A stretch of 64,000 bases of DNA from Macrostomum hystrix (Eukaryota > Animalia > Platyhelminthes): the NCBI GenBank assembly GCA_950097015.1, contig CATNEN010000038.1, forward strand, positions 28,520,001 to 28,584,000, in the 5' to 3' direction. Positions 9,218 to 42,165 of this stretch are shown here, piece by piece. How positions within the stretch are numbered: the stretch's first letter is position 1; every line of letters begins with the position of its first letter. The translations under genes and the position numbers were made by a program. A model generated the notes under the pieces. It worked only from the letters and a program-made list of their open reading frames with translations, searched no databases and was not told where the DNA came from.

Positions 9218-9395
9218 TAGCACTTCTACATGAGTGTACAGTTTGTGTTAGCGTGTTCTGACTCGGTTTCAGTTCGTCTTTAGTTTTACTCGATCGCGGC
9301 AGTGTAGACGTGATTCACGTGGCAATTCGCGTTTACAGTTTGACGTGAACTGAAGCACTATAGGTAAATTAAGGGAATTAAGTATCTTGTTCGTG

Positions 9396-21030: not shown

Positions 21031-24000
21031 ATGGAAGTCGCCAAAGATATCTTGAAAACTGGCTTGGCTAAAAGAATGTGTACATTGGCTATTGTGCAAT
21101 TAGTTTCTCATCGACCCGCCCTATAGGCAGAGACAGAAAGGCATCTTTAAAGGCTTGGGGGTTGAGGGTGCATAGTTTGTCTGTCTATTTGTGTGACCAG
21201 ATATAAAAGCTATGAAATGTGCATTTTATTATAAAAATTCCTTTTCTACTTTGTGGTTCTAGTCTTCTTAGTAAATTCTTTATACTCGACAGAAACACTC
21301 TGAGAATTTCTCAGTCATGTTCAAGCCAAGCTCAGATTCTGAATTTTCTGCTTCGTCACTGCGCGGGTTGAAGTGAGTGCAGTCTGCCAGCTGTCGCTTT
21401 TACCTTCCAGTACTTGCAGAATTAGTATTTCAGACTGCTACCAGACATCTCAAATCTAGTCTCACTCGCATTCACACTATTTAATTAAGCTAGTTTCGCA
21501 AGGAAGCTTCCAAAATTACTTCTATTTCTGTATTAGGGTTAGCAACTTACAAGGGCTCAATAAGTTTTGCTACATTTGCAATCCATACTTTAATCGTTGT
21601 GTCATAGTTGGTCTAACATGAGTCTTTTGTAAGTGTCTCAGCAGTTCTTGCTTATCTACGAGTTTATTGAAAACCATTTCCGATTGGTAGGGAAAACGTG
21701 TTTGATCATTTCTTAGAAATCCGTTCCCATGTTTTCTTTATAGAAATATGTTGACCTTCTTTCTTTGGAATATTTATTATTAGTCTGGGTTAATTGTTGA
21801 AAAATCGTTTCCAATTATTTCTTAGAAATCTCGTGTTATCTTTACGTAAAAATCCCTTCTTAGAAATATCCTTCCATTCTGTCCTAACAATCATTGTTTC
21901 ATCGTTTGTTATAAATCCACTTACATCCTTTATTCCAAATCGTTTTCAATCTCTTTTTAGAAGAAAATTCAATACTAGCTGTCCTACGAAAATATTTTTA
22001 TAATTTCCTAGAAATATTTCCCATTCTTTCTTAGGATTAACTTCCATTTCTACTTAAAAGTGCCTCACTTTTTTTAATCCAGCACCGCTCTTTCTTAGAA
22101 ATTTCTTTCCATCCATTTTTGAAGTATCTTCTGTCATGACAGTGTCCTCATAGAGTTTATTATTAGAAACTATTTATCCCATTCTATCTGGGAAATTCCC
22201 TTCCATGTTTTCTTATATATCATTTTATCGTTTCATCGTTTCTTTGAAATATGATAAGTTGCCCATCCTTTCTTAGAAATAATTTTACAAAATCTCTTGA
22301 ACGATACTCAATTCCGCACTACGAATCACTTGTATGGGTTTTAGAGATAGAAAAAATTGTTATTTGTCGTGGAAATTCTTTTATATTTAGTTTCAAAAAA
22401 ATTTCTTCCTATACTTCTTAGATATTCAGTTCTATTGTGACTTGCGAGGCGGTAAAATTCCGCGGACCATTATTAACTCTCCCATCACACCTGGTCATTC
22501 GTCCCAGGGGCTCGCGAACGCCCGGGCATCGTTTATCAACGCGGCCGGCGCGTCGTCCGAGCGGCAGCGCCAGCTCAGCCGCTGGCGAGCTCAGCCTGGC
22601 CGGGCCGGCTTGGATCTTTCGCGGCCAGGAGGTCGAGAAGGAGGACGCAGCGAAGGTCATCAAGTTCCCGGAGCTGCACTCGGATCTGGCCAAGTCCTAC
22701 TCCGAGCAGATTAAGCCCTGCTATGATCAGATCGCCCGGCTCAGAGCTCTGGGCTTCGCCAAGGAGCTGCGTCTTCCAGCCATTGTCGTGATCGGCGACC
22801 AGTCCACTGGCAAGAGCTCGGTGCTGGAGAGCATCAGCGGTGTGAGGTTCCCGCGCGGCAACGGCGTGGTGACGCTCTGCCCGCTGCAGCTCAGCATGCG
22901 CACTAGCGAGGACGGAAAATGGCGGGGCAACATTCGCTATTACGACGCCTACGGCAAGCAGATGAAGTGGGACATCGACGGGCCGGAGGACGTCGAGGAC
23001 GCCATCCAGGAGGCGCAGGCTCGCATCACCGGCAAGCAGCGCAGCATCTCCAAGAGCATTATCGAGATGACTCTGGAGAGTCCAGAGTTGCCTAATCTGA
23101 CCCTGATTGACCTGCCGGGCATTGCGCGCTACAACCACAGCAGCGCGGAGGCCGGCGCCAGTGTGCATCAAGTGGTAAGATATGCCGCTCGCGTTCACGT
23201 GCTGATGGACAGTGGGACAAACAAAGCCATTCTGCCACCTGTTTTTATACCATCAGGGGGAGGGAAATCCCCCCTGAAATTTTTGGCAGCGCCCGAATGC
23301 TTACAACGTTGGGTGGTGACTAAGGCTGGTTGACAGACTAGGCGATGGTGTCCTGTGGTTAATAGGCTTAATCAGTGAATTTGGAGAAATTCAAGTCAAG
23401 AGTGTCCAAAGTGACTTATTTCCATCTGTTGTAGCCCTTGAAGGTCCAGCAGTCCGTCTAGATAAAGGTAGGTGACCACCGAAGATGGAGATGATGCAGG
23501 CACACTCGGGTGACATGCTGATAAATTTTGAAGGCCTGGCAATGCCGCACTGAGGCGCAGTGCTAACTCGTGTATAGGGGTGTATGAAATACACTAACTC
23601 TTTTGGGAAAAATCGGACCTTCGTCCAGAAATATTGAATATCTCGACGGTCTGAAGAGCTGGCGACTTGATTCTTGTTTCAGAAGATGCGCAACAAAAAG
23701 TTGGCCCGTGTTCTTGAGTTTCGTGTCCTTGCATTGTTCCGTTCGGGTGCAGCAAAAAAATTGTCAGGGGGGGGAAATCCCCCCCCCCCTTGGTAGTTCT
23801 ACTGTTAAGGGGCTTCGGATTGATATGGACGTCATTTGACGTCAGTCGACACAAGGCCAGCGAAGCTCATTTCGCAAATATTCAGAAAGATTCAAACGCA
23901 TGCCAAATCTCCTTCCAGACCACCGACATCATCAAAGAGTACATCAGACGCGAGGAGACAATCATCTTGGTGGTGATTCCGCTCACAGCGGACACAGCCA

Positions 24001-27000
24001 CGATGGAGGCCCTGCAGCTGGCGAAGGACGCCGATCCGTACGGCATGCGGACTATTGGTGAGATTTTTATTTACAATAAAAAGAGCTTGCAGCCAGCCTA
24101 TTGGCAAACTCCGGCCCGCGGGCCAGATGCGGCCCTCAAAGCTCCAAAATCCGGCCCGTTGCCCCTTACAACACCTACAGTATCCTGTCTCATCTCGCTA
24201 TCAATTGGAGATCGAGATTCTCATCTATCCCGTGTCTTATCTCTCCTGTCTCATCTCTCCCCTGTATAATCTCTCCCTTGTAAGATCTCTCCCCTGTCTT
24301 ATCTCTCCCGTGTCTCGTCTCTCCCCTGTCTCGTCTCTCCTGTCTCATCTCCCCATGCAGTCTCATCTCCCCTGTCTCATCTCTCCCTTGTCTCATCTCT
24401 CCTGTCTCATTTCTCCCGTGTCTCATCTCCCCTATCTTATCTCTCCCTTGTCTCATCTCTCCTGTCTCATCTCTCCCGTGTCTCATCTCCCCTATCATAT
24501 CTCTCCCCTGTCTCATCTCTCTTGTCTTATCTCTCCTGTCTCATCTCTCCTCTGTCTTATCTCTTCCCTGTCTTATCTTATTATGTGACTCATCTATCCC
24601 CTTTCTCATAAGTCAATGCGGCCCGCTGTCGTCTTTTAGGTTCTCTCTGTGGCCAGCTAGCTAATAAGTTTGCCGACCCCTGGGCTAGAGCGTCAGGCTT
24701 CGATAAGATTTCCTCATTTTCTTAGCTTACACTACTGTAGAATTGTTACCTAATAATAATAATAGTGATAATTGACTACAGCTGCTCCAATAGGGCCAGG
24801 TGTGCAGCCGACAGCACAGCCGCAGCTATTGCGCGGCGCATCTGAAGGCTGCGTACGGTTGTTCAGTCCATGGACTGGGGGGGACGCCACACCCACCTTT
24901 AATTATCCCAGCTAATGCTGGTACCCATTTAACAGCTGGGTGAACTGGCAATGCAGTGTTAAGTGTCTTGTTAAAGGACACAAATTGTTTCAGTGGAGTC
25001 GGGAAACGAACCCTTGACCTTCCAGTCGTGAGTCATTAGCTATAACCACTAGGCTACAAGCTCCTTAAAGACGGTCTCTTACTGCGAAGACTCAATCGTT
25101 ACCTAAGTTATCTATATAAACTCAATATTGCCCCCAAGGGAGGGGTTGAGGGCAAAGCTTACCAAGGTCCCAGAGCTCGATTCCGCGGCGAGGCCACATT
25201 TATTTGAAGGCCAAATCTTAATGGACGCGCAATTTACTGAATGATCTTCATTCCGTCCATGGACTGAACTGTTGTAACCTGCTTTTTAAAAGCGTTGTTT
25301 TGTATCTCACTACAAGCAAAATAAAATAATCGACAGGTGTGCTCACGTTTCCCGACCTGGTGAACAAGGGAGCTCAAGAGGAGAAGCTCATGATTGCCAG
25401 GAACATCAGCTACCCGCTAGCTAAGGGCTACGTGACTGTGAAGTGTCGAAACCAGGACGACATCAAGAATCGGAAGCCGTTGAAGGAAGCCAAAGCTGAC
25501 GAGGTACTGTTCTTCAACACTGACCCCTTCTTCAAGCAGCTGGACTCCATGTGTAGAGGCTCCGACATGCTGGCTAAACGGCTAAGCGAGGAACTGCTTC
25601 TCCTGGTCAAGGTGAGTGATTTATGGCTATATCAGCTTCTAATTACGAGGTGATAATTATCTTATTAACTTAAAGAATTGGCTGATTAGCTAATTAGGTT
25701 CGTGCTCCTCTTATGTTTTACGAGTTAGCATAATATTTACTGTAACTTTAATTTATAAATAGCACATTGTATTTCATTTTCCTCAATTGAATTTATGTGT
25801 TTTTGCTTTGCAATGGCTTCATAGCAGCCTTGCAATAATCTCATAGCAGCCTTGCAATAATCTCATAGCAGCCTTGCAATAATCTCATAGCAGCCTTGCA
25901 ATAATCTCATAGCAGCCTTGCAATAATCTCATAGCAGCCTTGCAATAATCTCATAGCAGCTTTGCAATAATCTCATAGCAGCCTTGCAATAATCTCATAG
26001 CAGCCTTGCAATAATCTCATAGCAGCCTTGCAATAATCTCATAGCAGCCTTGCAATAATCTCATAGCAGCTTTGCAATAATCTCATAGCAGCTTTGCAAT
26101 AATCTCATAGCAGCCTTGCAATAATCTCATAGCAGCTTTGCAATAATCTCATAGCAGCCTTGCAATAATCTCATAGCAGCTTTGCAATAATCTCATAGCA
26201 GCTTTGCAATAATCTCATAGCAGAGGTGCTAAATTGAGTCGTTGAAATTAAAATCATTTGAATTGAGTAAAGTTGGACAAATGAACGCTGTTTTAATTAA
26301 TAACCCATTGCGTACATCAAGCAACTATCTTTGATTATAGTAAAAGCAACAATGTCCCTTCGCCAGAAATTCATTCCGGAGCTTATCAGCGATGTCCAGA
26401 GTGTCCGCGAACGCCTCAGTCAGGAGCTAAACCAGATGGGCAAGGGACCGCCTGAAGACGACCGCTCCAAGGTCGCCCTGATTGCGCGCATGTTCAACGA
26501 CTTCTCTAAGCTGTTTGAAAAGGAGGCATCAGGTTGGTGTTGGTGCAAGTACAGTTTAAGGAAGTCATGCTCACATATTTAAGGTGTATAATCTTCATGA
26601 GTTAGGGATGCAAGAAAACTGTTTCCTAAAAATCAATAATTTTGCCTCTCTCGCTAAATGATTCATTTTGATTCATTCATTCAAAACAGGTCTACAAAAG
26701 TTTTCCTAGAAATAATGGTGTGTCAGACCACCGGGGGTGTATTTGAAATATCAAATAATATTTTTTTTTATCTCTTAAAAAACTCAATCAATGTAGAACA
26801 CGGGCTAAAATTTTCCGCTCTATCCGCGCTAAAGGACACATTGTTCCGGTGGAGCCGGGAGTCGAACCCCCGACCATCAAGTCGCGAGTTGTACGCTCTA
26901 ACCACTATACAACCCCATATGGCTTGAACCAATTAGCTACTCTATCACAATCGCGCTAATCCTATTTGGGCAGGTAAGTCGCACAACTTCCAGGACGAAT

Positions 27001-29741
27001 CTGGCAAGAGGAACCTGCACCAGCGCTGCCGCATGCACTGGAGCAGCCTAGCCGAGCAGATGGAGAAGACTGTGCGACAGATTGGCGACGACGACGCCAA
27101 GATTCGCAAGGCTGTGCAGGACTTCCTCGGAGATCAGCGCGGCCGGGAGCTGCCGAACTTCCAGTCGGCCTATCCTGTCATCGAGTGCATCATTCGGCAG
27201 CGTCTGGTGGCTCCGCTGCGTCAGCTGTCAATGAACTGCCTGCGCGATGTCAGCGTGGAGGTCGACGATACGCTGAGGGACCTGGCTGACTCTGTGTTCA
27301 CTTCGTATCCAAAGCTTAACCTCTACGTTAAGGTAGGAAGCCATATTGACCCGCTCAATTGACCCGATTGACCTCTCATTGTGCATTTGGTGTTTGCCCC
27401 TATGGTCATATATCGCCCGACTAGTCCTTAAGCCATTTCTCAGCGGCTCAAATGAATTTATGTAGCAAGAATTCGATGCGTTAAATTAATTATATACTTA
27501 GTTACTACGGGGGTGACTGGTAGAGCGGTTAACACGTCTGCCTCTCGCACCAAGGTCCCTCAGCTCGATTCCGCGGCGAGGCCACATTTATTTCTGGCGC
27601 AGCCGCGGAGAGAAGGCTTGGGGCTTGACCAAACTCCAAGGCACAGTTGAGAGTGTACACTGCCTGACGATGAGAAAGTCAGGGCAGATGTACACAACTG
27701 TGTGCGTATGTTCTCAGGAGTCATCGAAATGGACAGAAATTGCCTCCTAGCTGGCTACAGGTCTAGTGTCACACAAATGATGTCCCATTGCCCACAGCCC
27801 TTCTGCAATAGTTATTATTATTGTTAAATAACAGTTGTTGATATGTTATCAGTTTAAGAGCTGGTTGAATAGAGGCTATTGTTAAATAAGATTCGTCATG
27901 ACTGAGATTCAAGCTCGTATTTTTCCTTAACTGCGTCCCCCCGCCAGGAATGCGTGCAAACCATCAAGGAGCGCATGTACTCAAGGGCCAAAGAGGATCT
28001 TGACAGGCAGTTTGAGCAGGAGAGCTACGTCTGGACCAACGACATCACCTTCGATGAAGAGTCCTGCAAGCGCGAAGCCACCCGCTCACTGGTGATGAAC
28101 GTGATGCTGCCGCCTAGAAAGAACATGTACTCGTTCACCGAGCAGTTCAACAGGCAGGCAGTCGAGTGGATCGCCGATCATTGCTGCCAGAGTGAGTCAA
28201 ATTGCTCACTGGTTGAGGCCATTCTGGAGTGATTTGGTAGTAGGACTACCAAACTGGTAGTGTACACTGGAGCAGCCGTTTTGAAGTTTTGACGTTTTGA
28301 CGTTTTGACGGAGCCGTCCGTTTTGACGAGTTTGGCGAGGGTGTCCCTAATATTTAGGCTTGATCAGTGAAATTAGACAAATTCGCGTCCATGGTGGCCT
28401 AGTTCCACCTGTTCCAGCCATTGAAGGTCCAGCAGTCCGTCTAGATAAAGGTAGGTGACCACCGAAGATGGAGATGATGCAGGCACATTTGGGTGACATG
28501 CTGATAAATTTTGAAGGCCTGGCAAGGCCGCACTGAGGCGCAGTGCTAATTTGTGTATAGGGGTGTATGAAATACACTAGCGTTTACGGGGAAAATCCGA
28601 CCTTCGTCCAGAAACATTGAATATCTGGACGGTCTGAAGGGCTGGCGACTTGACTCTTGTTTCAGAAGATGCGCAACAAAATTTGGTCTCTCTGTTCTTA
28701 AGTTTCGTGTTTTTGCGTTGCTCCGTTCGGGTGTAGCACAAAAATTGTCTGGGGGAAATCCCCCTGGTAGTTGTACTTTAAAACCCTATCTACTTTCTTT
28801 AAACTTCAATTGTTGCTTTAGGTACCGAAGAAGAACCTAATATGGAATTCGCTAGCTGGTTTCAAGGCATCTTTCAGCGTAAGAACTTTCCATTATTGTC
28901 GCTATAACAGCTTTATTTCGCACCAGCTTTACCTTGACATTAACTTTCTTGTCGTCTAAACTAATGCAGAATACTTTAGTCAGTCTTCGAACTCTGGCTC
29001 CGCTGGCGAGAACGGATCTCAGCCGAAGGTTGGCGCTGCTCAGGACACAGATGAAGCGACCGAAAAATGTCTGAACTCACTGCACTCTTATCTCAAGGTA
29101 TATAAATATTAATCTTTGCTTCTTATAATTATAGAATGACCTAATCGGCTTTACTACTAGAAAACTGCACCAGTTTTTTAAATAGAGCAATCAATAATCG
29201 TATTCAATATTCGAGCGTTTTTTGTCTGTAAAAGGATTCCTTTGAAATGAGGTCTCAACTTTGAGTCTAAAAATAGAATTTTTTTCTAAAAATACGTCTA
29301 CAATAATGACGTCAGAGTTTTTAAATCTAAAAATAGATACAAAAATGCACCTAAATATGGATAGTCGATAGTGTTTCTTCAAACAGATCGATGAAGGTAA
29401 ATACATTTGAAAAAGATTTATTTCGTCAGTAAAAATATTTACAACAATTACGTAAGTTTTTTGTCTAAAGAAAATCACAAAAATCGAATTAAAAAAAACC
29501 TCGTTTTCAGATCGCACTGACTCGAATGATTGACAACGTGCCACTGTGCATGATGCACTTCATGCTCTACAAGCTGTCAGACGAGTTGTGCAACGAGGTG
29601 AGCATCTTCCAACAGGAGTCTGAAAAGCTAGACCAGCTGCTTGAGGAGAAGGAAGGCATTAGGCTGCACCGCATTGAGACCAAGAACCGGATGAAGGCCC
29701 TGGCGGAGGCTGAGAACGATCTGTGCCGAATCTCGCTTTGA
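21031..29741 (+). CDS. MX: Mx-like (myxovirus resistance-type) dynamin-superfamily GTPase
   Basis: LPAIVVIGDQSTGKSSVLESISG, FPRGNGVVTLCPL, LTLIDLPGIAR, LAKGYVTVKCRNQ, RGRELPNF and GED YLKIALTRMIDNVPL; no PH or PRD domain. Confident exons: 22508-23174, 23919-24057, 25337-25611, 26367-26532, 26974-27332, 27948-28191, 28822-28878, 28970-29097, 29511-29741. Tentative phase-compatible 5' exons: 21031-21077, 21127-21160, 21293-21372 (alternative ATG at 21317). Confidence 0.9.
21700..22430. promoter_or_regulatory. Putative STAT (GAS) / kB motif cluster formed by a degenerate ~22-bp repeat
   Basis: TTCNNNGAA at 21710, 21819, 21857, 22005, 22092, 22240 and 22270; TTC-N4-GAA at 21761; GGGAAATTCCC at 22190-22200. 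The motifs are seen directly; their function is inferred. Confidence 0.55.
23210..23804 (+). mobile_element. TIR element family Y copy 1 in an Mx intron
   Basis: Ends CAGTGGGACAAACA / TGGTAGTTCTACTG; body shared with 28238-28777 and left arm shared with 46793-46925. Confidence 0.8.
24094..24682. mobile_element. hAT-like MITE interrupted by a ~16-bp CT-rich minisatellite (24225-24600)
   Basis: Left TGGCAAACTCCGGCCCGCGGGCC and right AGTTTGCCGACCCCTG resemble the CAGGGGTCGGCAAAC termini of Charlie/hAT MITEs; TCTCATCTCTCCCCTG tandem array inside. Confidence 0.7.
24754..25064 (-). mobile_element. tRNA-derived SINE family B with CORE-like central domain
   Basis: Minus strand: A box TAGCCTAGTGG, B box GGTTCGTTTCC, then GTGTCCTTTAACAAGACACTTAAC...CACCCAGCTGTTAAATGGG (CORE-like), (ATT)n tail; TSD AATYGTTACCTAA at 24741-24753 and 25094-25106. 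Confidence 0.85.
25063..25096 (+). other. Spliced-leader (SL) exon-derived fragment, 3'-truncated (not an SL RNA gene)
   Basis: CCTTAAAGACGGTCTCTTACTGCGAAGACTCAAT matches, with one mismatch, the 5' 34 nt of the Macrostomum lignano SL as recalled (CCGTAAAGACGGTCTCTTACTGCGAAGACTCAATTTATTGCATG). It lacks the terminal ATG, the donor GT and the Sm site. Confidence 0.8.
25819..26223. repeat. 22-bp minisatellite in an Mx intron (TCATAGCAGCCTTGCAATAATC)
   Basis: About 18 near-perfect tandem units. Confidence 0.97.
26830..26925 (-). mobile_element. SINE family B tRNA head fragment
   Basis: AAAGGACACA...GTGGAGCCGGGAGTCGAACCC...CTCTAACCACTA is homologous to 24970-25055. Confidence 0.75.
27509..27822 (+). 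mobile_element. tRNA-derived SINE family A copy in an Mx intron
   Basis: TGGTAGAGCGG A box, GCTCGATTCC B box, conserved body and tail. Confidence 0.9.
28238..28777 (+). mobile_element. TIR element family Y copy 2 in an Mx intron
   Basis: Starts TAGTAGGACTACCA, ends TGGTAGTTGTACT; about 400 bp is highly similar to 23365-23800. Confidence 0.82.
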
Positions 29742-30217
29742 TTCGGAAATTTTTTGTGTGCTGACTTTGACTAGCTTCTTGACTTTTTCGCTACATATCG
29801 GTTCGCTTTTAATTCCTTTAAAATTCGATTGTGAACCTGAAATTCATGTTAGCAAACCGAAAATTGTTGATCCATTTGATCAAATCTGCTATGTTAATTC
29901 ATTTAATCACACAGTAGCATTATTCGCAACTTTACTCTTTTTCATTTAAATAATTTTAGAACCTACAGTTGCTTCTTACCATTCCGAAAAGGTTTGAACT
30001 AGAGGTGCTAAAAGTTCATAGGAAGTTTTCCGATGTACTGACAAATGAAATATATGACAACTGCTACAAGGAGCACAGTTTAATGCTAAATAACTGAATT
30101 ATATACGTAAATCATTACTAATTAAAAATCTAAACAGTAGCTTGAGCGAATATGTGAGGTAATTTTTTTTCTAATCATAGAATTCGCATGCTTCTGGAAC
30201 AGTACAAGGGTAATATA

Positions 30218-31184
30218 GAAGAGGTGAGAGAGAACGGGTGAGAGAGAATGGGTGAGAGAGAAGGGGTGAGAGAGAAGGGGTGAGAGAGAAGGGGTGAGAG
30301 AGAAGGGGTGAGAGAGAAGGGGTGAGAGAGAAGAGGTGAGAGAGAAGGGGTGAGAGAGAAGGGGTAAAAGAGAATGGGTGAGAGAGAAGGGGTGAGAGAG
30401 AATGGGTGAGAGAGAATGGGTGAGAGAGAAGGGGTGAGAGAGAAGGGGTAAAAGAGAAGGGGTGAGAGAGAAGGGGTGAGAGAGAAGGGGTGAGAGAGAA
30501 GGGGTGAGAGAGAAGGGGTGAGAGAGAAGAGGTGAGAGAGAAGGGGTGAGAGAGAAGGGGAGAGAGAAGGGGTGAGAGAGAAGGGGAGAGAGAAGGGGTG
30601 AGAGAGAAGGGGTGAGAGAGAAGTGGTGAGAGAGAAGGGGTGAGAGAGAATGGGTGAGAGAGAGGGGGTGAGAGAGAAGAGGTGAGAGAGAAGGGGTGAG
30701 AGAGAAGGGGAGAGAGAAGGGGTGAGAGAGAAGGGGAGAGAGAAGGGGTGAGAGAGAAGGGGAGAGAGAAGGGGTGAGAGAGAAGGGGTGAGAGAGAAGG
30801 GGTGAGAGAGAAGTGGTGAGAGAGAAGGGGTGAGAGAGAATGGGTGAGAGAGAGGGGGTGAGAGAGAAGAGGTGAGAGAGAAGGGGTGAGAGAGAAGGGG
30901 AGAGAGAAGGGGTGAGAGAGAAGGGGTGAGAGAGAAGGAGTGAGAGAGAAGGGGTGAGAGAGAACGGGTGAGAGAGAATTGGTGAGAGAGAAGCGGTGAG
31001 AGAGAAGGGAAGAGAGAGAAGGGTTGAGAGAGAAGGAGTGAGAGAGAAGGGGTGAGAGAGAACGGGTGAGAGAGAATGGGTGAGAGAGAAGCGGTGAGAG
31101 AGAAGGAGTGAGAGAGAAGGGGTGAGAGAGAAGGGTTGAGAGAGAAGGGGTGAAAGAGAATGGGTGAGAGAGAACGGATGAGAA
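30218..31184. repeat. 14-bp purine-rich satellite (GGGGTGAGAGAGAA)n between Mx and the CD225 gene
   Basis: About 69 tandem units. Confidence 0.97.
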
Positions 31185-31680
31185 ATGTAGGATATTAAGA
31201 AAGCTGTGATAACGATGAATGTGTCTAAACTTACTGCATACTAATCCAATCTGAAGGCCTGGATTCTAAAAGTACAGTCTACAAGCTTGTTCTTTGTCTA
31301 CATAAATGGAATGCCTAATGACAGAATTTTTTGTCGGAATTAAATTGATCCAGATTTTATCCATCGAATTAGAATTCTTTCTCTAGATAAATCCGAACAC
31401 GCGTCTGCAATGTGAAACAGCTGCAGTCGATGCTTTTACAAATGCTAGAATTGACCTGAACCTAACTCCACCATGTGTTATTCCATGAGCTTTTTGACAT
31501 GTAATAGCTATCAAAAAGAAGCAGAAGAAAATTAACATGTTTTTAAAAAAAGGATTTCAAAATATGGTTTAAATTAATGACGTTTTTATAAGTGAAAATT
31601 TATATTTGCACATTGTTTGAAAATTTTTAATGTGACGTGATTTATTGTGCATACAATTAACTTTTGTTATTTATTTAAAG

Positions 31681-31922
31681 AACTGATTTGGGATCAGCAC
31701 TGACTTGGGATCAGAACTGATTTGGGATCAGAACTGATTTGGGATCAGAACTGATTTGGGATCAGAACTGATTTGGGATCAGAACTGATATGGAATCAGA
31801 ACTGATTTGGGATCTGAACTGATTTGGGATCAGAACTGGTTTGGGATCTGAACTGACTTGGGATCAGAACTGATTTGGGATCTGAACTGATTTGGGATCA
31901 GAACTGATATGGAATCAGAACT
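31681..31922. repeat. 17-bp minisatellite (AACTGATTTGGGATCAG)
   Basis: About 14 units just 3' of the CD225 gene stop codon. Confidence 0.95.
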
Positions 31923-32012
31923 CATGAGAAGATGAAGTATTAAAACGGACTTGTCAGTTCAAAAATACCGAACCAATCGATTATCGACAATGCCGAGAAA
32001 TCGAATCCGGTT

Positions 32013-32608
32013 TCAGTGAGACTTCGAATAAAGATCGAAGCTGCTTCGCATCGCATTGCCTAACGACTCATCCTCAACAGTGCCAATGTTGAGGCTCTTG
32101 ATGAACTTGGCGATGAACACAACAGTCGGGTGGCTCAGCAGGTAGATGAAGATCAGCATTGTGGACAGGACGCCCATTGCGTTGAACAGGAAGGCCAGAT
32201 TGCCATAGAGTATAGCCCGTCTTTGCGAGACCTCGTCCTTCTTATTGGCCAGCAAGTTGTGCGCCCTGATCGACAATGCCACGGCGATGCCACCAAACAC
32301 GAAGTTAAAGAAGATCGTCACAATGACTGACACTACAAAGTTGGTGACTCGATTTTTATTATTGGTCTCAAATTCCATTGGTAAGAGGCGCGGCACCTTT
32401 AATTGTTTTGTTAGAGGGACGCTTGACTCCTGCTGCTGCTGCGGCGGCTGCTGCTGCAGTAGTGGCCTGCTGGATTCTGTTTCAGCTGACTGCAACAGCA
32501 GTGGATGATTCATGAGTCGTATAGTCAATAGACTAGTACCAGGTAGTGCTGAAGCATCGTAGTCTAGACCCTGTGCTGATATCAAAGCGCTCGGGTTGGC
32601 GTACCAAC

Positions 32609-32643
<35 letters not shown>

Positions 32644-32645
32644 AT
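32013..32645 (-). CDS. CD225/dispanin-family (IFITM-like) membrane protein
   Basis: 210-aa ORF with a Q/P-rich N-terminus, then NFVVSVIVTIFFNFVFGGIAVALSIRA-(basic loop)-AILYGNLAFLFNAMGVLSTMLIFIYLL, the two-hydrophobic-segment CD225 pattern. In-frame stop just upstream of the ATG. Confidence 0.8.
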
Positions 32646-33027
32646 TGTTCACACACGGCAGGATGTCTGTTGCAGTTGCATTTGGAATTAAAATGTATAG
32701 CGTTCAGTTTGGATAGGATGGCGGGACTCAGGATTTGATGCTAATATTCCCTACCATGAGAGTTGGCCATCTGTCGTCTATTGATTTTTCCTTCACCTCT
32801 GTCTCTGTTTGGCTGTCTACTAAAAGCAGGCATCAGCAGCCACTCCGCTTATTTTTCTTCCCATCTAAAGCTCCGCGTTCATAGATGCCATCAGTTTTTT
32901 CTGCTCTGCTAGTTCTATACTACCAGATTAGCATTGCTAACTCAATGTGTTTGACTGCACTGCTGCAGGTGCATAGCGTTTAAATAGTGAACTACTGACT
33001 CACAGTATTGCATTTTTTAGGTACAGT

Positions 33028-35183
33028 CGAGTGGAATGCTTCAGGACCATTGGGGTAGAATTCTGCAGGTCCATTGGGGTCGAATGCTGCAGGTCCATTG
33101 GGATAGAATGCTGCAGGTTCATTGGGGTAGAATGCTGCAGGTCCATTGGGGTAGAATGCTGCAGGTTCAGTGAGGTAGAATGCTTCAGGTTCACTGGAGT
33201 GGAATGCTTCAGGACCATTGGGGTAGAATGCTTCAGGTTCATTAAGGTAGAATGCTTCAGGTCCATTGGGGTAGAATGCTGCAGGTCCATTGGGGTAGAA
33301 TGCTGCAGGTCCATTGGGGTAGAATGCTGCAGGTTCAGTGAGGTAGAATGCTTCAGGTTCATTGGAGTGGAATGCTTCAGGACCATTGGGGTAGAATGCT
33401 TCAGGTTCATTCGAGTGGAATGCTTCAGGACCATTGGGGTAGAATGCTTCAGGTTCATTCGAGTGGAATGCTTCAGACTCATTGGGGTAGAATGCTTCAG
33501 GTTCATTCGAGTGAAATGCTTCAGGCTCATTGGGGTAGAATGCTTCAGGTTCATTGGGGTAGAATGCTGCAGGTTCATTTGAGTGAAATGCTTCAGGCTC
33601 ATTGGGGTAGAATGCTTCAGGTTCATTGGGGTAGAATGCTGCAGGTTCATTTGAGTGGAATGCTTCAGGCTCATTGGGGTAGAATTCTTCAGGTTCATTG
33701 GGGTAGAATGCTGCAGGTTCATTTGAGTGAAATGCTTCAGGCTCATTGGGGTAGAATGCTTCAGGCTCATTGGGGTAGAATGCTGCAGGTTCATTTGAGT
33801 GGAATGCTTCAGGCTCATTGGGGTAGAATGCTGCAGGTTCATTCGAGTGGAATGCTTCAGGCTCATTGGGGTAGAATGCTTCAGGTCCATTGGGGTAGAA
33901 TGCTTCAGGTTCTTTGGGGTAAGAATGCTTCAGGACCATTGGGGTAGAATGCTTCAGGTTCATTTGAGTGGAATGCTTCAGGCTCATTGGGGTAGAATGC
34001 TGCAGGTTCATTCGAGTGGAATGCTTCAGGCTCATTGGGGTAGAATTCTGCAGGTTCATTCGAGTGGAATGCTTCAGGCTCATTGGGGTAGAATGCTGCA
34101 GGTTCATTCGAGTGGAATGCTTCAGGCTCATTGGGGTAGAATGCTGCAGGTTCATTCGAGTGGAATGCTTCAGGCTCATTGGGGTAGAATGCTGCAGGTT
34201 CATTCGAGTGGAATGCTTCAGGCTCATTGGGGTAGAATGCTGCAGGTTCATTCGAGTGGAATGCTTCAGGACCATTGGGGTAGAATGCTTCAGGTTCATT
34301 CGAGTGGAATGCTTCAGACTCATTGGGGTAGAATGCTTCAGGTTCATTCGAGTGAAATGCTTCAGGCTCATTGGGGTAGAATGCTTCAGGTTCATTGGGG
34401 TAGAATGCTGCAGGTTCATTTGAGTGAAATGCTTCAGGCTCATTGGGGTAGAATGCTTCAGGTTCATTGGGGTAGAATGCTGCAGGTTCATTTGAGTGGA
34501 ATGCTTCAGGCTCATTGGGGTAGAATTCTTCAGGTTCATTGGGGTAGAATGCTGCAGGTTCATTTGAGTGAAATGCTTCAGGCTCATTGGGGTAGAATGC
34601 TTCAGGTTCATTGGGGTAGAATGCTGCAGGTTCATTTGAGTGGAATGCTTCAGGCTCATTGGGGTAGAATGCTGCAGGTTCATTCGAGTGGAATGCTTCA
34701 GGCTCATTGGGGTAGAATGCTTCAGGTCCATTGGGGTAGAATGCTTCAGGTTCTTTGGGGTAAGAATGCTTCAGGACCATTGGGGTAGAATGCTTCAGGT
34801 TCATTTGAGTGGAATGCTTCAGGCTCATTGGGGTAGAATGCTGCAGGTTCATTCGAGTGGAATGCTTCAGGCTCATTGGGGTAGAATTCTGCAGGTTCAT
34901 TCGAGTGGAATGCTTCAGGCTCATTGGGGTAGAATGCTGCTAGTTCATTCGAGTGGAATGCTTCAGGCTCATTGGGGTAGAATGCTGCAGGTTCATTCGA
35001 GTGGAATGCTTCAGGCTCATTGGGGTAGAATGCTGCAGGTTCATTCGAGTGGAATGCTTCAGGCTCATTGGGGTAGAATGCTGCAGGTTCATTTGAGTGG
35101 AATGCTTCAGGCTCATTGGGGTAGAATGCTTCAGGTCCATTGGGGTAGAATGCTTTAGGTCCATTGGGGTCGAATGCTTCAGG
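33028..35183. repeat. 24-bp minisatellite (CATTGGGGTAGAATGCTTCAGGTT) with an 841-bp higher-order duplication
   Basis: About 90 units; the unique variant TTCTTTGGGGTAAGAATG occurs at ~33910 and ~34751. Confidence 0.97.
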
Positions 35184-35759
35184 GTGATTATATGCATATT
35201 TGGTGTGAGGAAAGGACATGCACAATATAGACAGAATATAATCGATTATCTAGCTACAGTTATATTTCATCAGATGTCACAATGCGACTATAAGTCAGAC
35301 ACAGCATTCACATATGTCATGGCAATTCAAAGACTCAAATAAGACATACCCATGAATTTCTGATTAATTCTAATGCACAGCTTTCCCAAGTCGTACCCTT
35401 TTGGTCAATAAATAATATTAATAATAATAATAAGTTTTCCTCAAAGGATTAGTATACTTATTGCATGGGGGTCTGTGTTTGTGCCTCCTGTTAAATTGAT
35501 ATTCTTTTCCATCAGTTTAATGAATGCTGTGTCGGGTGCAGGGCTCAAAAACTTTTATAATAATACCGCATATACAGGAATATTATAATCCAGATTTTGC
35601 ATGCTTCTAAATGCAAAATGGTCTACTTAGCCTAGAGACAGCATTCTGAATAACACGGGTAGCATTCTGCCCGTGTACTTCTGTGATTTGAGTAGCAGCG
35701 TCTTAGCGAAATAAACACTTGACCAGCATGACAGCCAGTTGATCTGCTATGACAGCCAG

Positions 35760-35955
35760 AAAGTCTATCTCGCAGTATAGGTCTATCCAATCCCGTAGTA
35801 TATCTGTCCAATCTCACAGTAGATCTACCCAATCTCACAGTAGATCTATCCAATCTCACAGTAAATCTATCCAATCTCACAGTAGATCTATCCAATCTCA
35901 CAGTAGATATATCTAATCTCACAGTAGATCTATCCAATCTCACAGTAGATCTGTA
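35760..35955. repeat. 21-bp minisatellite (CTATCCAATCTCACAGTAGAT)
   Basis: About 9 units. Confidence 0.93.
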
Positions 35956-37389
35956 TTTTTTCTGTTTCTCAGTAAATCAATTAATCATTATAAATCAGTT
36001 ACTGGTTTGATTCACTGAAAATTTATAATTTCCTAATTGCTTCATAGGAAGCCCCCTTTTAGATTAAAATGCCGTCTTTCAGTTAATGTGGCTGTCTTTA
36101 ACAAAACTAGATTAATTTTTAGTATTTTCCAAGATAAACAGTTTCACCGACCAGCTTGACCTGGATGCTAATTCACAGCTTCAAGTAACTATCGAGACAA
36201 CGTAAGATTGTACTCTGACACTGTAAGAATGTTTAATTGAGTCTTTGTGAACTGATTCTTTTTAAAACTACGATTATAAAAGGCCAACTCTCACAATTAG
36301 TCAGTTGAGATGATGTTCAGGAAACGTCGTAGACGTTTCTGCTGGCTTTTTTCCTCCATATTTAATACAGGGAAAGCACAGCTGTAAGCAATTTGCTTGA
36401 ATTAGCTTCGCACAAGTCAGGAAATCGAATGAAAGCACCTTTAAAACGCCTGATTTCGATAGACTAGCCTTTTGGGGGGGCGGTAATGCATCTGAACTTG
36501 ATAAGAACAGAGCTAGAGAGGTAGAAACTGACAGATCAATAATTAATTAGATTTTAGCTAAGCCTTCGGCTTACTAATCCACCCCTTATTACTTAACTTT
36601 GATATAAAAGAAGCCACATATTCTGCTTGACTATCTTGTGGCGTGGTAAAATTATTATGAACGCATGGAAATATTTTACAGAAAAAGTATAGTTCGTTTT
36701 TTTATATTGACGCGGAAACGACTAATCACACACTAGTCGATCGTACGGAATGAAATAGGTAAAAATGTTCTGTAGATTAAAGGATGCCTGAGTACGCTTA
36801 AATACGGGACAAGTGCTATTTTTAGCTTCAAGGTCAAACGGCACGTGGTTTACTCGTGTTAGGATAAGTACTGATTCCTTAAGTACTGATTCCTTTTCTT
36901 TGAATGGGGTAGTTTTGCGGGCTATTTTTTGGCGTCATGCTATTTTAGCTTCAAGGTCACACAGCACGTGGTTTACTTGTGCTAGGATAAGTACCGCTTT
37001 CCTTTCTTTGAATGTCATTTTTGTGTTGTTTTTGCATCATTGATGAACAAGGTGAATTATCACTTCAACTTTTTCGTATATTTCTTTGTCAATAGGTTCG
37101 AATTTTGTGTTTTATGGCGTTTGATTATAGCAAAGCATAGATAGTTATATGGGATAACTTTTATTAAAGTATTATATAAAACACACTTTTTAGATGAAAT
37201 CTCAAAGCGCGTAAGAAAAGGCTGTGTTTTTTGTACTTTACAGGCAGTAGGGCAAGGTACAATTTACACAGATGACGATGCTATTAAAATTTAAAAATAT
37301 TTTCAACTGCCTCGCAGTTCGGTCTTTTCCTGATGCTTAAAAAAAGAAATCATAATTTAATCTACATTTGTGCACATTTTCAGTCAGTC

Positions 37390-37612
37390 AGGGGAATCCC
37401 CAGATGTACATTTGGGCGCTTTTTAGGGGCAGTTATTCTGGGGAATCCCCAGATGTACATTTGGTCGCTTTTTAGGGGCAGTTATTCTGGGGAATCCCCG
37501 GATGTACATTTGGTCGCTTTTTGGGGGCAGTTATTCTGGGGAATCCTCAAATGTACATTTGGTCGCTTTTTGCGAGCACTTAGTCAAGGGAATCCCAAGA
37601 CTTACATTCGGT
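37390..37612. repeat. 49-bp tandem repeat carrying kB-type GGGGAATCCCC motifs
   Basis: Motif at 37391, 37440 and 37489, with variants at 37538 and 37588. Confidence 0.92.
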
Positions 37613-37856
37613 CACAGATTCTTAGAGCTAGACTTAGACCCTTGCATAAAAATCTTTTTCTAGAAGAGAAAAGAGAAGAGACAATGTACCTCATTTTGGA
37701 GCATGCAACTCTACAACAGTTTTGCGATGTCAAAGCCCTACTGTTATTTCAGGTCAGGTATTCCATTTCAAACTTATCGCAAAAATTTCAAAATACTTTT
37801 AAAAGTTTAGTAAAAGAAGTGAATCTAAATTGGATGAATTAATCGTCTTCAATTAT

Positions 37857-40800
37857 CTACTTCTTTCCGTAGACGTCCAGAGTTCGAGCCCGATCCAGAG
37901 CCTGGCGGAAAAGTTTGTGCTCGCGCCTCTCGCGCAGCTGACAAGGCGCGAAGCCGCGCATATCCGTGAGGCCCTCAAGCTGATCGGCGGATGGCACCGG
38001 CACTGGGCAGGTGCGAGTCAGCAGCTGGATGTAGCGACTGCCATCAGGGTCAGGCAGCATGTACGCATAGTGAAGTGGGGTCAGGCCCTCCTGTAAATGC
38101 AGGGATATAAGGTGGCTTGCGTTTTGTCTAAGTAGAAAATAATCCTACGTTGTTTACTATCAGTAGAGTACAACGTACATTAAAATAATTTTCAGCCAAT
38201 ATTATGTTAGTAAGTTATAAATTTTATGAGTGAGATAGAGACCCAAACCCCAACCTCCACCTCACTCCTCAGCCCTAGTCCTCCAACCCCAATTCGCAGC
38301 CCCGGTCCCCCACCCCACTCATCAACTCTAGGCCCCCACCCCACTCCTCAGACCCAGTCCCCCGCCCCACTCCTCAGTCTAAGTCCCCAACCCACTCCGC
38401 AGCCCCAGTCCCCCCTCACTCCGATCCCCACTCCCCCCTCACCACTCATCAACTCTAGTACCCACCCACTCCTCAGCCGCTGTCCCCCGGACCACTCCTC
38501 AGACCCAGTCCCCCGCCCCACTCCTCTGCCCAAGTCCCCACCGCACTCCGCAGCCCAGTCCCCCAACCCCCTCATCAACTCTAGTACCCACCCCACTCCT
38601 CAGACCCAGACCCCCGCCCCACTCCTCTGCCCAAGTCCCCACCGCACTCCGCAGCCCCAGTCTCCCACTATTGAGCCTCAGTCCCGCCCCACTACTCAGC
38701 CGCTGTCCCCCGCACCACTCCTCAGACCCAGTCCGCTACCCCAATCCTCAACTCTAGTTCCCCGCCCCACTTCCCCGTCACAATTCTAACCGGTCAGTCA
38801 ATCAGAGTAAAAGTTTTCCAAGAAAATCAAAGAGAAGAAAACTGAATACGCCTGTTTATTTGAACTACCCTATTTTCAGTAGCTGCGCACACTCTCACAT
38901 TGTCTGCCATTGCTGCCTGTTGTGGACGCTCCGCCAGAATCCACAGAGCCATGTCGTATCGGTCGCAGGCCACCGCTCGGATCAGAGCCGTGTATCCATT
39001 GGCGTCGCGATAGTCCGCCTCATTCAGCGCCTTCATCTTCTCCATGTCGTTCTGACGGATAGCCTTGAACAACTCGCTGCAGGATTTCTGTAAGTTTGTG
39101 CGTTATAGCTTAGTGGTTGGATAGGAGAGCGTCTATCCGCACTAAAGGCTTTAGTCAAGGGGAAACTAAACGAACCTCAACCAGCTCGATGCGACTTAGA
39201 AACTGCTCCTTCACTGGGTCCTTCGAACCGCTGACTGGCCCGAAGTTAGCAGCACCGTAGAAGTTCGTGGCCAGCGTCATCAGCAGAGCTTTGGCCTGGC
39301 GTGACTTTGCCTGCTTGAACAATTCGTCAATGACGGAGTCGATTGCGTCAGCCAAATCGCGGCGGTCAAGCCTGATGGCCATCTCGCGCGGCGTGCGCAG
39401 CTCGCAGGCGAAGGGCAGCCGATCCTTCAGCAGCAGAGCGTTCTGGCCCTGCCTGGCCTGCAGGACGCGGGCAAAATGCTGCGGCCTGATGTCCGTGCGA
39501 ATCAGCCGATGAAGCATTGTGAAACCGTCCTGTTTTTTATGTGATCGAGAAGTCAATTGGGACAGGATGAGACACGGTAAAAATGTGCAACAGGATAATA
39601 ATAATAATAATTACAAATCATTTAGTGACACTAGATCCGCAGCCAGCGGAAGGCAATTATGCCCATTTCGCTGACTCCTGAGCACGTCAGACAGGCAGAC
39701 AGGTGGGACAGGATAAGACACGGCAGACAGGTGGGACAGGATAAGACACGGCAGACAGGTGGGACAGGATAAGACACGGCAGACAGGTAGGACAGGATAA
39801 GACACGGCAGACAGGTGGGACAGGATAAGACACGGCAGACTGGTGGGACAGGATAAGACACGGCAGACAGGTGGGACAGGATAAGACACGGCAGACAGGT
39901 AGGACAGGATAAGACACGGCAGACAGGTGGGACAGGATAAGACACGGCAGACAGGTAGGACAGGATAAGACACGGCAGACAGGTGGGACAGGATAAGACA
40001 CGGCAGACTGGTGGGACAGGATAAGACACGGCAGACTGGTGGGACAGGATAAGAAACGGCAGACAGGTGGGACAGGATAAGACACGGCAGACAGGTGGGA
40101 CAGGATAAGACACGGCAGACAGGTGGGACAGGATAAGACACGGCAGACAGGTGGGACAGGATAAGACACGGCAGACAGGTGGGACAGGATAAGACACGGC
40201 AGACAGGTTGGCATTTTGTACAGCGATTCGAAATTCGAATACTAGCGAAAGATGGATAAACTTTCCGTCAAAACACCCCCTCACCGGGTCTCTGGCCTCA
40301 GAGTCCACGCCGGCCTCTACGAGGGTCATCAACAGGTCGAACTGGCAAGCAGACGTGATGGCAAAGTTGGCCAGCGGCTCCCCAGCTGGGCGCAGTCCTC
40401 GCGGCGACGCCCCGGCACTGAGCAGCGCCCTGGTTAGCGCCAGATTCCGATTGCCAACAGCCAGGGAGAGCGGCGTGTGTCGTGTCTCCGGATGCCGCCT
40501 GTCCAGTCGCAGTCGCTGAGGTGGCAGCTTGCGTAGCAGCAACTTGGCACCCTCGGTGTTGTCAGCCAGAATGTTGTGCACCAGATCGAGGAACGGCGCT
40601 TCTCTCTCGATGGCGTTGGCCAGTGCAGGACAGTCGGGCGCGCCGTGGACAGTCGGATGGCCGGAGTAGAAATCCAGCGCTGTATGACCAGGCAGCAGCT
40701 GCGAGTGCGGACTCACCCAGAGGTCAAGAGCTCGAACGCCGGCTTTGTAGCTTCCGCGTCGCAGTGCTTCAGCCAGGCCGGGCGAGTAGCGCTCGAAGAT

Positions 40801-42165
40801 GCCGGTCAGAGAGTCGGCGGAGTCGGCTGGAGCGGAGTCCGCGGGGAGCTGGCCAAGGCGGTCTCGAAGCAGCGGATCGGCGCCGCAGAGCAGCAGAGCG
40901 CGGCACATCTCCGCGTGACCGCGACGCGCCGCCACGTGCAGCGGGGTCTCGCCAGCCTGCGCAGGTAGGGGCGGAGGCGATTGTTAAGGATTGCAGACCG
41001 CAGGTAAGCCGCAAACGTCTAGATAATCAACGGCTCTGACAGAAGGAACAGAGTAACGGAGCTTGCAATTACAAACCTTATTCTGTGTGTTGACATTTAT
41101 GCCCATCAGAGCCAGAGTGTAGGCTGTGACCAGAGCCTGCAGGTCCTGTGAGCCGGCGCACAGGTGTAACAGCGTGTTGCCAGCCTTGTCACTCAGAGCG
41201 TTCTCATAGATTGCCTGCTTAGCCAACTCGTGCAGCTGAAGTGTACGGCGAAGTAATTAGTGAAATTTACTCATTGTTTATACTGAGTAATAAACACGTA
41301 GTCTCGATTCATACGTGTGAGACAACTACGATGGACTAAAAGGACTTTTTAGAAATGACAAGAACAACTAAAGTAGAGGGACACAACAAAACATTCAATT
41401 GAAAATACTTTAAAGGCTATTTATATATAGCTCGTATATATCACTTTTAACTCGATTTCCCTGCGACCTTAAATGTATGACTGAGTATAGGCTAGGCCTA
41501 CGCACTAACAAACAAAACTACGTAAAGGAAAATGTCGTTTAAACTATAAGAAATACACATCGCGACACAATGCTTTAATACGTATTCATTACCTCCTGTA
41601 ATTATTTCTTTCTATTAAAACTCTTGTCTAAAAAACATTTACATCTTTGAGCCTAACGCCGAACTCACACTGCTGAGCTTTTCCTCTCGACTTTCAGCCA
41701 GCAGGAGGTCCACGAATTCTCGAAACTTTTGCGTGTCGCCGGATCTGCGCAGTTCCATCGCCCGACTAAACCGTTGGTAGTTGCCGGCCCTGGCAAGCGT
41801 CTCCACGCTGCTACCATCGTAGTCGCGATTGTGCGGAAATCCGAAGTCGAGCAACAGCGCGGCGCAGTCTTCTTCGCCGTGATGCAGCGCCAGGTAGAGC
41901 GGATCAAAGCCCTGCCGGCCCTGGCTCAGCTGGTCTCGGTGGGTCTGGTAGAGCTCGCGGTAGTCAGCTAGTAGGGTGTGCACCTCGGAGGGATTGCCGC
42001 TGAGCACAGCTTCTCGAAGCTACCAATTGGTTGAATGAATTAGAAGTGTAATTTTCGTACCAGAGTACATTTGTGTATTTAATGTATTTTCTAACACGAA
42101 ATTAATAGAATGATGGACAGAATTACCTTTTCCAGTGCGACGGCAGTTTTTGTGTCACTGGTCAT
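37857..42165 (-). CDS. Multi-ankyrin-repeat protein
   Basis: Repeats GFDPLYLAL, GNTLLHLCA, GETPLHVAARRGH, RHTPLSLAV, GFTMLHRLI, GYTALIRAV and GLTPLHYAY. Phase-0 exons: 42165-42127, 42019-41669, 41235-41077, 40956-40285, 39529-39176, 39087-38899, 38090-37857. Confidence 0.9.
38243..38778. repeat. Degenerate C-rich tandem repeat in an ankyrin-gene intron
   Basis: Repeated CCCCACTCCTCAG(A/C)CCCAGTCCCC units. Confidence 0.88.
39594..40208 (-). repeat. SINE A 3' end (39594-39685) fused to a 28-bp minisatellite (GGCAGACAGGTGGGACAGGATAAGACAC) in an ankyrin-gene intron
   Basis: The SINE tail and body run directly into about 18 tandem units. Confidence 0.93.

What the first reader, a model, noticed from the sequence alone, without database searches (positions are those of the whole stretch)
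21031..37612. Candidate interferon-stimulated-gene-like antiviral locus in a flatworm: Mx-like GTPase tail-to-tail with an IFITM-like gene, with STAT and kB motif arrays
Seen: an Mx-type GTPase and a CD225 gene end 2.3 kb apart, convergent; Mx carries a GAS cluster and kB-type sites; a kB-type repeat lies 5' of the CD225 gene; a turning-over lectin cluster is about 9 kb away. Established: Mx and IFITM are vertebrate interferon/JAK-STAT-induced restriction factors, and invertebrates lack interferons. Inference: this may be a co-regulated, interferon-independent antiviral module.
Basis: partly seen in the sequence, partly recalled or inferred. Interest (0 to 1): 0.8.

Follow-up and report, generated by a model that had tools for sequence, protein, structure and literature searches.

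The report
STAT-site array in flatworm Mx intron
This is a spliced flatworm copy of the known antiviral-family gene Mx whose first intron keeps seven STAT-type DNA motifs intact inside an otherwise decayed repeat, likely a control switch for Mx, while the IFITM-like neighbour and the kB motifs are probably bystanders.

Summary
The Mx gene is real: 10 exons, 773 aa, spliced in transcript contigs, and 86% identical to Macrostomum lignano PAA94353, one of six flatworm Mx proteins already placed in the Mx clade (Langley 2025). The convergent gene 2.27 kb away is a divergent CD225-like protein, not an IFITM. It has no cysteine, no GD or GxxxG motif, and its named relatives are from parasitic flatworms. 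The kB evidence mostly falls away: three of four Mx sites sit in a high-copy dispersed repeat, and the 49-bp kB array most likely lies in the 3' UTR of an ankyrin gene, 4.7 kb from the CD225 start. What survives is the GAS cluster. Seven TTCNNNGAA sites (0.6 expected) lie in Mx intron 1, inside a decayed 24-bp minisatellite. Their 11-bp cores are 95% alike while the flanks are near background, a pattern that none of 16,275 matched neutral simulations reproduced. Best reading: a STAT-type enhancer made from a minisatellite, controlling Mx alone (0.5). A co-regulated Mx-IFITM module is unlikely (0.1). STAT and Rel genes, synteny and induction could not be tested.

The parts
21317..29741 (+). Mx-family GTPase gene, 773 aa, 10 coding exons: 21317-21372, 22508-23174, 23919-24057, 25337-25611, 26367-26532, 26974-27332, 27948-28191, 28822-28878, 28970-29097, 29511-29741
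   Evidence: Open spliced frame with GT-AG introns; spliced contigs in runs X2 and X3 fit the exon lengths; 86% identical end to end to M. lignano PAA94353
21690..22430 (.). Decayed minisatellite of about 24 bp, about 31 units, in Mx intron 1; single locus
   Evidence: Lag-24 autocorrelation 0.39 against a mean of 0.30; wraparound score 252 against 94-119 for 5 shuffles; single-copy depth in DNA run X1
21710..22278 (.). Seven GAS/STAT-type sites TTCNNNGAA at 21710, 21819, 21857, 22005, 22092, 22240 and 22270; five are the identical 11-mer TTCTTAGAAAT
22190..22200 (.). Single kB-type site GGGAAATTCCC, a variant of one unit of the same minisatellite
   Evidence: in register with the GAS units in family D1
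23209..23808 (.). High-copy dispersed repeat in Mx intron 2, carrying the kB-like hairpins at 23262 and 23772
   Evidence: 85% identical to 28355-28781, and its 5' part is 76% identical to 46792-46923; depth 73,000-417,000 at listed places against about 70-100 for single-copy DNA in X1
28346..28781 (.). Second copy of the dispersed repeat in Mx intron 7, with the kB-like hairpin at 28753
32013..32645 (-). CD225/dispanin-like gene, 210 aa, one ORF, two hydrophobic segments, glutamine-rich N-terminus, no cysteine
   Evidence: Pfam CD225 below cut-off; Atlas best hit CD225 at 0.83; six relatives, three named from monogenean flatworms; covered by contigs of transcript-like runs
33034..35183 (.). 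24/48-bp satellite between the CD225-like ORF and the kB array
37391..37613 (.). 49-bp minisatellite, 4.6 copies, with 3 perfect GGGGAATCCCC; likely in the 3' UTR of the ankyrin gene
   Evidence: the spliced ankyrin contig reaches 37526, and other contigs cover 37024-37470
37857..42165 (-). Ankyrin-repeat gene, 665 aa, spliced
   Evidence: Seven CT..AC joints in X6/X8; open frame; Pfam Ank; Atlas returns generic ankyrins only
6081..12195 (-). Three C-type lectin gene copies (6081-6722 ends early; about 7540-7850 internally deleted; 11446-12195 whole). Context only, not shown to be linked to Mx

Best explanation
This is an expressed Macrostomum Mx gene whose first intron carries a likely STAT-type enhancer: a 24-bp minisatellite in which seven TTCNNNGAA motifs stayed intact while the rest decayed. 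A STAT dimer would bind these clustered sites 0.4-1.0 kb downstream of the start codon and set Mx output without interferon. Activation on infection is the more likely mode; repression that lifts on infection, as with C. elegans STA-1, is also open. The Mx protein would act as other Mx GTPases do, by oligomerising and recognising targets through loop L4. The CD225-like gene is a divergent flatworm dispanin that probably just lies next door, and the kB motifs are by-products of repeats. Shown: gene structure, splicing, Mx identity, motif count, core-over-flank conservation and the repeat context of the kB sites. Inferred: STAT binding, immune induction, antiviral activity.
For: Mx identity: 86% to PAA94353; sister to the three Mlig014920 copies at 99/99; PAA94353 is among six M. 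lignano proteins in the published Mx trees. The orthologue scores 318 bits on MxB against 174 on dynamin-3 and 153 on Drp1. GAS: 7 observed, 0.62 expected. Spacings of 1, 2, 4 and 5 give 0, 0, 1 and 1, and TTC-N3-GAA ranks first among all gapped 3+3 palindromes with 4 or more copies. Cores are 95% pairwise identical and flanks 39%, against a background of 30%. No neutral simulation matched for periodicity gave 5 or more identical 11-mers with flanks at background: 0 of 10,233 and 0 of 6,042 with site-rate variation. Six other arrays in the window keep flank scores of 0.67-0.89 against 0.44 here. A motif learned de novo from flatworm chromatin, WC_0056 (TTTCTT[A/C]GAAA), matches the core. An M. 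lignano gene is labelled STAT3 in a GO list. L4 is the most divergent stretch: 11 of 30 identical against 21-30 of 30 elsewhere.
Against: No STAT gene was verified: no genome was held, the STAT3 label is only a best-hit name, and STAT Pfam terms were absent from that paper's 4 supplements. The sites are units of one repeat, so shuffles overstate them; the count alone (7 or more) arose in 0.7-12% of matched neutral simulations, depending on the model. The simulations do not model short-tract gene conversion and start from a consensus taken from the data. In Nematostella, STAT knockdown did not reduce cGAMP-induced genes. There are no induction data, and conservation of the array in orthologues is untested. 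All 19 M. lignano Mx entries and this protein lack the G4 lysine, so their GTPase chemistry may differ from MxA.
Confidence: 0.5

Rival explanations
1. The motif is functional but is read by another factor, for example a BCL6-type zinc finger or the unknown factor behind WC_0056, and works as a tissue enhancer or silencer with no link to infection.
For: The WC_0056 match comes with a muscle and neoblast bias and a poor Stat5a score. The BCL6B matrix printed (TGCTTTCTAGGAATT) overlaps the GAS consensus. Mx contigs are present in both runs X2 and X3, with no sign that these were challenged samples.
Against: Only the N3 spacing is enriched, and all seven sites keep both half-sites, which is the palindrome a STAT dimer needs (established knowledge). 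The host gene belongs to a family that is STAT-controlled in vertebrates.
Confidence: 0.2
2. The cluster is neutral: one of this genome's many minisatellites happened to contain TTCTTAGAA, and drift or gene conversion left some copies whole.
For: The window has 42 tandem-repeat rows. The sites are in register with a 24-bp period. With strong rate differences between units, 5 or more identical 11-mers arose in 17% of matched simulations.
Against: In all 628 simulated arrays that reached 5 identical 11-mers, the flanks were more alike than observed. The one preserved 11-mer is a canonical GAS site, and it sits in intron 1 of an Mx gene.
Confidence: 0.2
3. One reading: Mx and the CD225-like gene form a co-regulated, interferon-independent antiviral module under STAT and NF-kB.
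For: The genes are adjacent and both are covered by contigs of the same transcript-like runs. The kB array is not common by chance: 2.4% for any of 18 arrays. One perfect kB site lies among the GAS sites. The CD225 promoter is unmapped and could lie upstream, near the array.
Against: The genes are tail to tail, so they share no promoter. There is no GAS cluster near CD225. The kB array is covered by ankyrin-gene and adjacent contigs. Three Mx kB sites are in a genome-wide repeat. The CD225-like protein lacks the cysteines and GxxxG that IFITM3 needs. Invertebrate dispanins resemble subfamilies C and D, not IFITM. No Rel/NF-kB evidence was found: the one NFKB2 label in M. lignano rests on an ankyrin-annotated cluster, and M. 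lignano has no TLR.
Confidence: 0.1

Closest known systems
Macrostomum lignano Mx PAA94353 / Mlig014920 (Langley et al. 2025, PMC11789081)
   Same: Orthologue: 86% identity over 773 aa, same domain order, same TFPD and VVTL motifs.
   Different: L4 region only 11 of 30 identical. In the passages I read, the paper covers protein phylogeny, not regulation; whether its intron has the array is unknown.
Vertebrate MxA/MxB (interferon-stimulated GTPases)
   Same: GTPase, middle and GED domains with no PH domain (orthologue); best solved-structure hits are MxB and MxA.
   Different: G4 is TFPD rather than TKPD, and the switch reads VTLC rather than VTRC. Vertebrate Mx promoters use ISRE elements (recalled); no GAAAN1-2GAAA match was found at 20000-23000 here.
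IFITM1-3 (dispanin subfamily A)
   Same: Weak CD225 profile match; two hydrophobic segments joined by a basic loop.
   Different: No cysteines, no GD, no GxxxG, no intron between the helices, a long Q-rich N-terminus, and no vertebrate hit in three searches.
Clustered intronic STAT sites such as the Drosophila Socs36E intron (recalled, no call)
   Same: Several TTCNNNGAA sites within a few hundred bases of a first intron.
   Different: Here the cluster visibly derives from a 24-bp minisatellite, and binding is untested.
C. elegans STA-1 and the oyster interferon-like response
   Same: STAT or ISG-like antiviral control in invertebrates without known interferon (passages).
   Different: STA-1 represses its targets; neither set of passages describes a GAS array in an Mx gene.

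Membership tests
Mx clade of dynamin-superfamily GTPases | GTPase, middle and GED domains without a PH domain | tested here: met
   Pfam on window exons and on the orthologue P0001
Mx clade of dynamin-superfamily GTPases | Closer to Mx than to dynamin or Drp1; groups in the Mx clade | tested here: met
   Orthologue 318 bits on MxB, 174 on dynamin-3, 153 on Drp1; sister to PAA94353 (my tree of 28 rows has no non-Mx outgroup); PAA94353 is in the published Mx trees
Mx clade of dynamin-superfamily GTPases | Canonical GTPase motifs G1-G4 | tested here: inconclusive
   G1 GDQSTGKS, the G2 threonine and G3 DLPG are present; G4 is TFPD. All 19 M. lignano entries have TFPD or TCPD; 100 of the 104 other stored proteins of 300 aa or more have TKPD and 4 gave no match
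Mx clade of dynamin-superfamily GTPases | Antiviral activity and immune induction | not testable with these tools
   No challenge data; contigs show presence only
CD225/dispanin superfamily | CD225 profile match with two hydrophobic helices | tested here: inconclusive
   19.1 bits against a cut-off of 27.1, but 7 of 7 aligned members hit CD225 (best E 1.2e-5); Atlas 0.83, with 10 of the 10 best family hits agreeing; helical hairpin model at pLDDT 66
CD225/dispanin superfamily | C-C motif in helix 1, G-D in the loop, conserved intron in the loop | tested here: not met
   No cysteine, no GD, single ORF; features from PMC3282796 passages, which note that the S. mansoni dispanin also lacks the intron
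IFITM (dispanin A) | Palmitoylated cysteines and a loop GxxxG needed for virus restriction | tested here: not met
   Absent from the sequence; features
IFITM (dispanin A) | Sequence affinity to vertebrate IFITMs | tested here: not met
   Six relatives at E up to 0.001 among 1.84 billion; 3 named are monogenean, 3 unnamed
STAT-bound GAS enhancer | Clustered TTC-N3-GAA beyond chance, specific to the spacing | tested here: met
STAT-bound GAS enhancer | A STAT is encoded in this genome | not testable with these tools
   No genome held; only a STAT3 label for M. lignano
STAT-bound GAS enhancer | STAT occupancy and motif-dependent expression | not testable with these tools
   Needs an experiment
NF-kB-responsive element | kB sites at the promoter of the target gene, outside generic repeats | tested here: not met
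   Three sites in a dispersed repeat; the array lies 244 bp past the ankyrin stop in transcribed sequence; the CD225 start site itself is unmapped

The most novel reading that the evidence does not exclude
A flatworm that has no known interferon built a STAT-responsive antiviral enhancer for Mx by recruiting a minisatellite: selection kept the GAS cores and let the spacers decay. This would be direct cis-regulatory evidence that STAT-to-Mx wiring works through GAS sites without interferon or ISGF3, and a visible case of an immune enhancer arising from a tandem repeat.
Probability: 0.35. Interest if true: 0.7.

Novelty: new member of a known kind. Interest (0 to 1): 0.45.

Why it matters
Mx genes are now known to predate interferon, but what switches invertebrate Mx on is open. 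This intron gives a concrete 0.6-kb element to test in a genus with RNAi and single-cell ATAC data and with transgenics (recalled). If it works, it shows STAT-to-Mx wiring without interferon and an enhancer born from a minisatellite. The wider claim of an Mx-IFITM module is not supported.

Tried and rejected
No whole genome was held, so the STAT/Rel search, the paralogue introns and synteny stayed open. No RNA holder was listed; runs X2, X3, X6 and X8 nonetheless hold spliced contigs. No contig of the transcript-like runs covered about 32650-35600, so the CD225 5' end is unmapped; this blank is not used as evidence. Run X9 lay almost only on repeats. The single-sequence homologue search for the CD225-like protein found nothing among 320 candidates. 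The alignment search returned only 3 of its own members, and no named M. lignano orthologue appeared. Foldseek of the CD225 model found no match at E up to 0.001. The Atlas gave generic ankyrins for the ankyrin exon, so an IkB-like identity is not supported. An exon-2 acceptor at 22430 (798 aa) was dropped because contig X3-13 starts the exon at 22508 and the orthologue fits 773 aa. A heat-shock element was rejected: there are 0 TTC-N2-GAA sites in the intron. Four look-ups of earlier findings returned nothing. Paper searches for STAT or NF-kB in Macrostomum gave no direct statement; passages of PMC7958881 had none either. Supplements of PMC5946080 could not be read and may hold expression data for Mlig014920 or a STAT annotation. 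Files 13-19 of the PMC11789081 supplements were not searched.
Full report
Setting. The window is from a Macrostomum flatworm, inferred from protein hits: the GTPase is 86% identical to M. lignano PAA94353, which points to a congener or a diverged copy. No whole genome was held. Gene order: bHLH-PAS gene, three C-type lectin copies, an RRM gene, Mx (+), CD225-like (-), ankyrin gene (-), a DUF3402 gene and a dynein heavy chain.

The Mx gene. Ten exons from 21317 to 29741 give 773 aa with no internal stop. Contigs in runs X2 (2516 nt) and X3 (2616 nt) are spliced. Their listed pieces match exons 2, 4, 6, 7 and 10, and the gaps between pieces fit exons 3, 5 and 8+9. X3 has 80 more bases 5' of exon 2. 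Its depth in bin 21101-21701 (4.17 = 31.3 x 80/600) and zero depth in 21702-22302 place them at exon 1 and make 21373-22507 an intron. In a tree of 28 Mx rows (27 chosen from the 126 proteins then stored, no non-Mx outgroup) the protein is sister to the three Mlig014920 copies at 99/99. The orthologue scores 318 bits on MxB, 174 on dynamin-3 and 153 on Drp1. Langley et al. 2025 (PMC11789081; passages; 12 of 19 supplements) report at least six M. lignano Mx proteins, and PAA94353 is in their trees. So a flatworm Mx is known. Two details stand out: the L4 stretch is 11 of 30 identical to the orthologue against 21-30 of 30 elsewhere, and the G4 lysine is replaced in all 19 M. lignano entries and here.

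The GAS cluster. Intron 1 holds 7 of the window's 32 TTCNNNGAA sites within 570 bp. Dinucleotide shuffles give a mean of 0.62 and a maximum of 4 in 2000; other spacings are at background; the best other 600-bp stretch has 4. I therefore asked whether the motif decayed less than the rest of the unit. The seven 11-bp cores are 95% pairwise identical and their 13-bp flanks 39%, against a background of 30%. Neutral arrays were simulated and kept only if their periodicity matched. The count alone is only mildly unusual (7 or more sites in 0.7-12%, by model). But none of 10,233 had 5 identical 11-mers with flanks at background; 601 reached 5 copies, all with more similar flanks. With random site rates the result was 0 of 6,042, of which 27 reached 5 copies. 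Six other arrays in the window behave like the simulations (flank score 0.67-0.89 against 0.44). Gene conversion was not modelled. The array is single-copy in DNA run X1. A motif learned de novo from flatworm ATAC data, WC_0056, reads TTTCTT[A/C]GAAA (PMC11398382; passages and supplements). Twelve of its 25 best window hits, counting both strands (7 places), fall in this intron. Its authors score it a poor Stat5a match and list it for muscle and neoblasts, and I did not see its species of origin.

The kB motifs. The matches at 23262, 23772 and 28753 are hairpins within a dispersed repeat: two copies are 85% identical, with depth of 73,000-417,000 against about 70-100 for unique DNA. The site at 22190 is a variant unit of the GAS array. 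The 49-bp array has 3 perfect sites; some array among 18 would hold a kB consensus by chance 2.4% of the time. It lies 244 bp past the stop of a spliced 665-aa ankyrin gene. That gene's contig runs to 37526 in X8, and further contigs cover 37024-37470. No contig bridges 37471-37525, so '3' UTR' is likely, not shown. The CD225 ATG is 4746 bp away, beyond a 2.15-kb satellite.

The CD225-like gene. It encodes 210 aa with two hydrophobic segments and no cysteine. Pfam CD225 is below cut-off, but all 7 aligned members hit it, and the Atlas agrees at lead level. A full scan of 1.84 billion representatives found 6 relatives; 3 are named, from Cichlidogyrus and Protopolystoma. They share a T-x4-S...F-x-N...G motif set. 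IFITM3's palmitoylated cysteines and GxxxG (PMC3282796 and PMC7665892; passages) are absent, and invertebrate dispanins resemble subfamilies C and D. It is best described as a divergent flatworm dispanin. Pfam's label 'interferon-induced transmembrane protein' names the family, not a function.

Regulators. I could not test for STAT or Rel. PMC5173321 supplements list an M. lignano gene labelled STAT3 and an NFKB2 label on an ankyrin-annotated cluster; STAT and Rel Pfam terms were absent from those 4 files. M. lignano lacks TLRs (PMC8609888; passages). Invertebrate precedent is mixed. Oysters induce ISG homologues and have JAK and STAT (PMC5869526; passages). C. elegans STA-1 represses antiviral genes (10.64898/2026.06.24.734234; passages). 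Nematostella STAT knockdown had no effect on cGAMP-induced genes (PMC8713801; passages). A 2026 preprint claims an interferon network in amphioxus (10.64898/2026.08.17.745176; search listing only), which qualifies the statement that invertebrates lack interferons.

Mechanism and verdict. Most likely (0.5), a STAT dimer binds the intronic array and controls Mx alone; the direction is open, with activation favoured. Rivals: another factor reads the motif (0.2), neutral repeat (0.2), co-regulated Mx-CD225 module (0.1). Searches listed no paper on a GAS array in an invertebrate Mx gene; the library lacks most subscription journals, so this is weak. Novelty: new member of a known kind. Interest 0.45, because the element makes the regulation of pre-interferon Mx directly testable, while the module as proposed does not hold.

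Noticed in passing
window 25337-25350 (Mx exon 4) and M. lignano entries such as P0001, P0004, P0024: All 19 M. lignano Mx entries and this protein replace the G4 lysine (TKPD to TFPD or TCPD); this subclade also has VTLC for VTRC. It may change nucleotide binding or turnover.
   Followed up: partly
window 28822-29097: Loop L4 is coded by a 57-bp in-frame exon (amphipathic-looking, FASWFQGIFQ) plus the next exon; the part after it is the most divergent from the orthologue (11 of 30).
   Followed up: partly
window 6948-6956: A single TTCTTAGAA, identical to the Mx core, lies about 226 bp upstream of the start of the first lectin copy; another GAS-type site is in Mx intron 5 (26703). Single sites are within chance.
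   Followed up: no
window 8576-11114: A 2.5-kb element with long, nested inverted arms (89-98%) sits between lectin copies; likely a fold-back or non-autonomous DNA transposon.
   Followed up: no
window 36803: Contigs in X4 and X5 begin with a loose end that looks like a template-switch adapter (identity recalled) at a genomic TACGGG; either a library artefact or a + strand RNA in the gap between CD225 and the ankyrin gene.
   Followed up: no
P0127-P0132 and window 32013-32396: A small cysteine-pair-less CD225-like family shared with monogenean flatworms; the three members listed carry no precomputed Pfam annotation.
   Followed up: partly
runs X2, X3, X6, X8: Runs listed as 'DNA?' or '?' contain spliced contigs and so behave as RNA libraries.
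   Followed up: yes
window 36814-36880 and 36938-37004: A 68-bp direct duplication (88%) with CACGTG E-boxes, each copy ending at or near a TTCTTTGAA.
   Followed up: no
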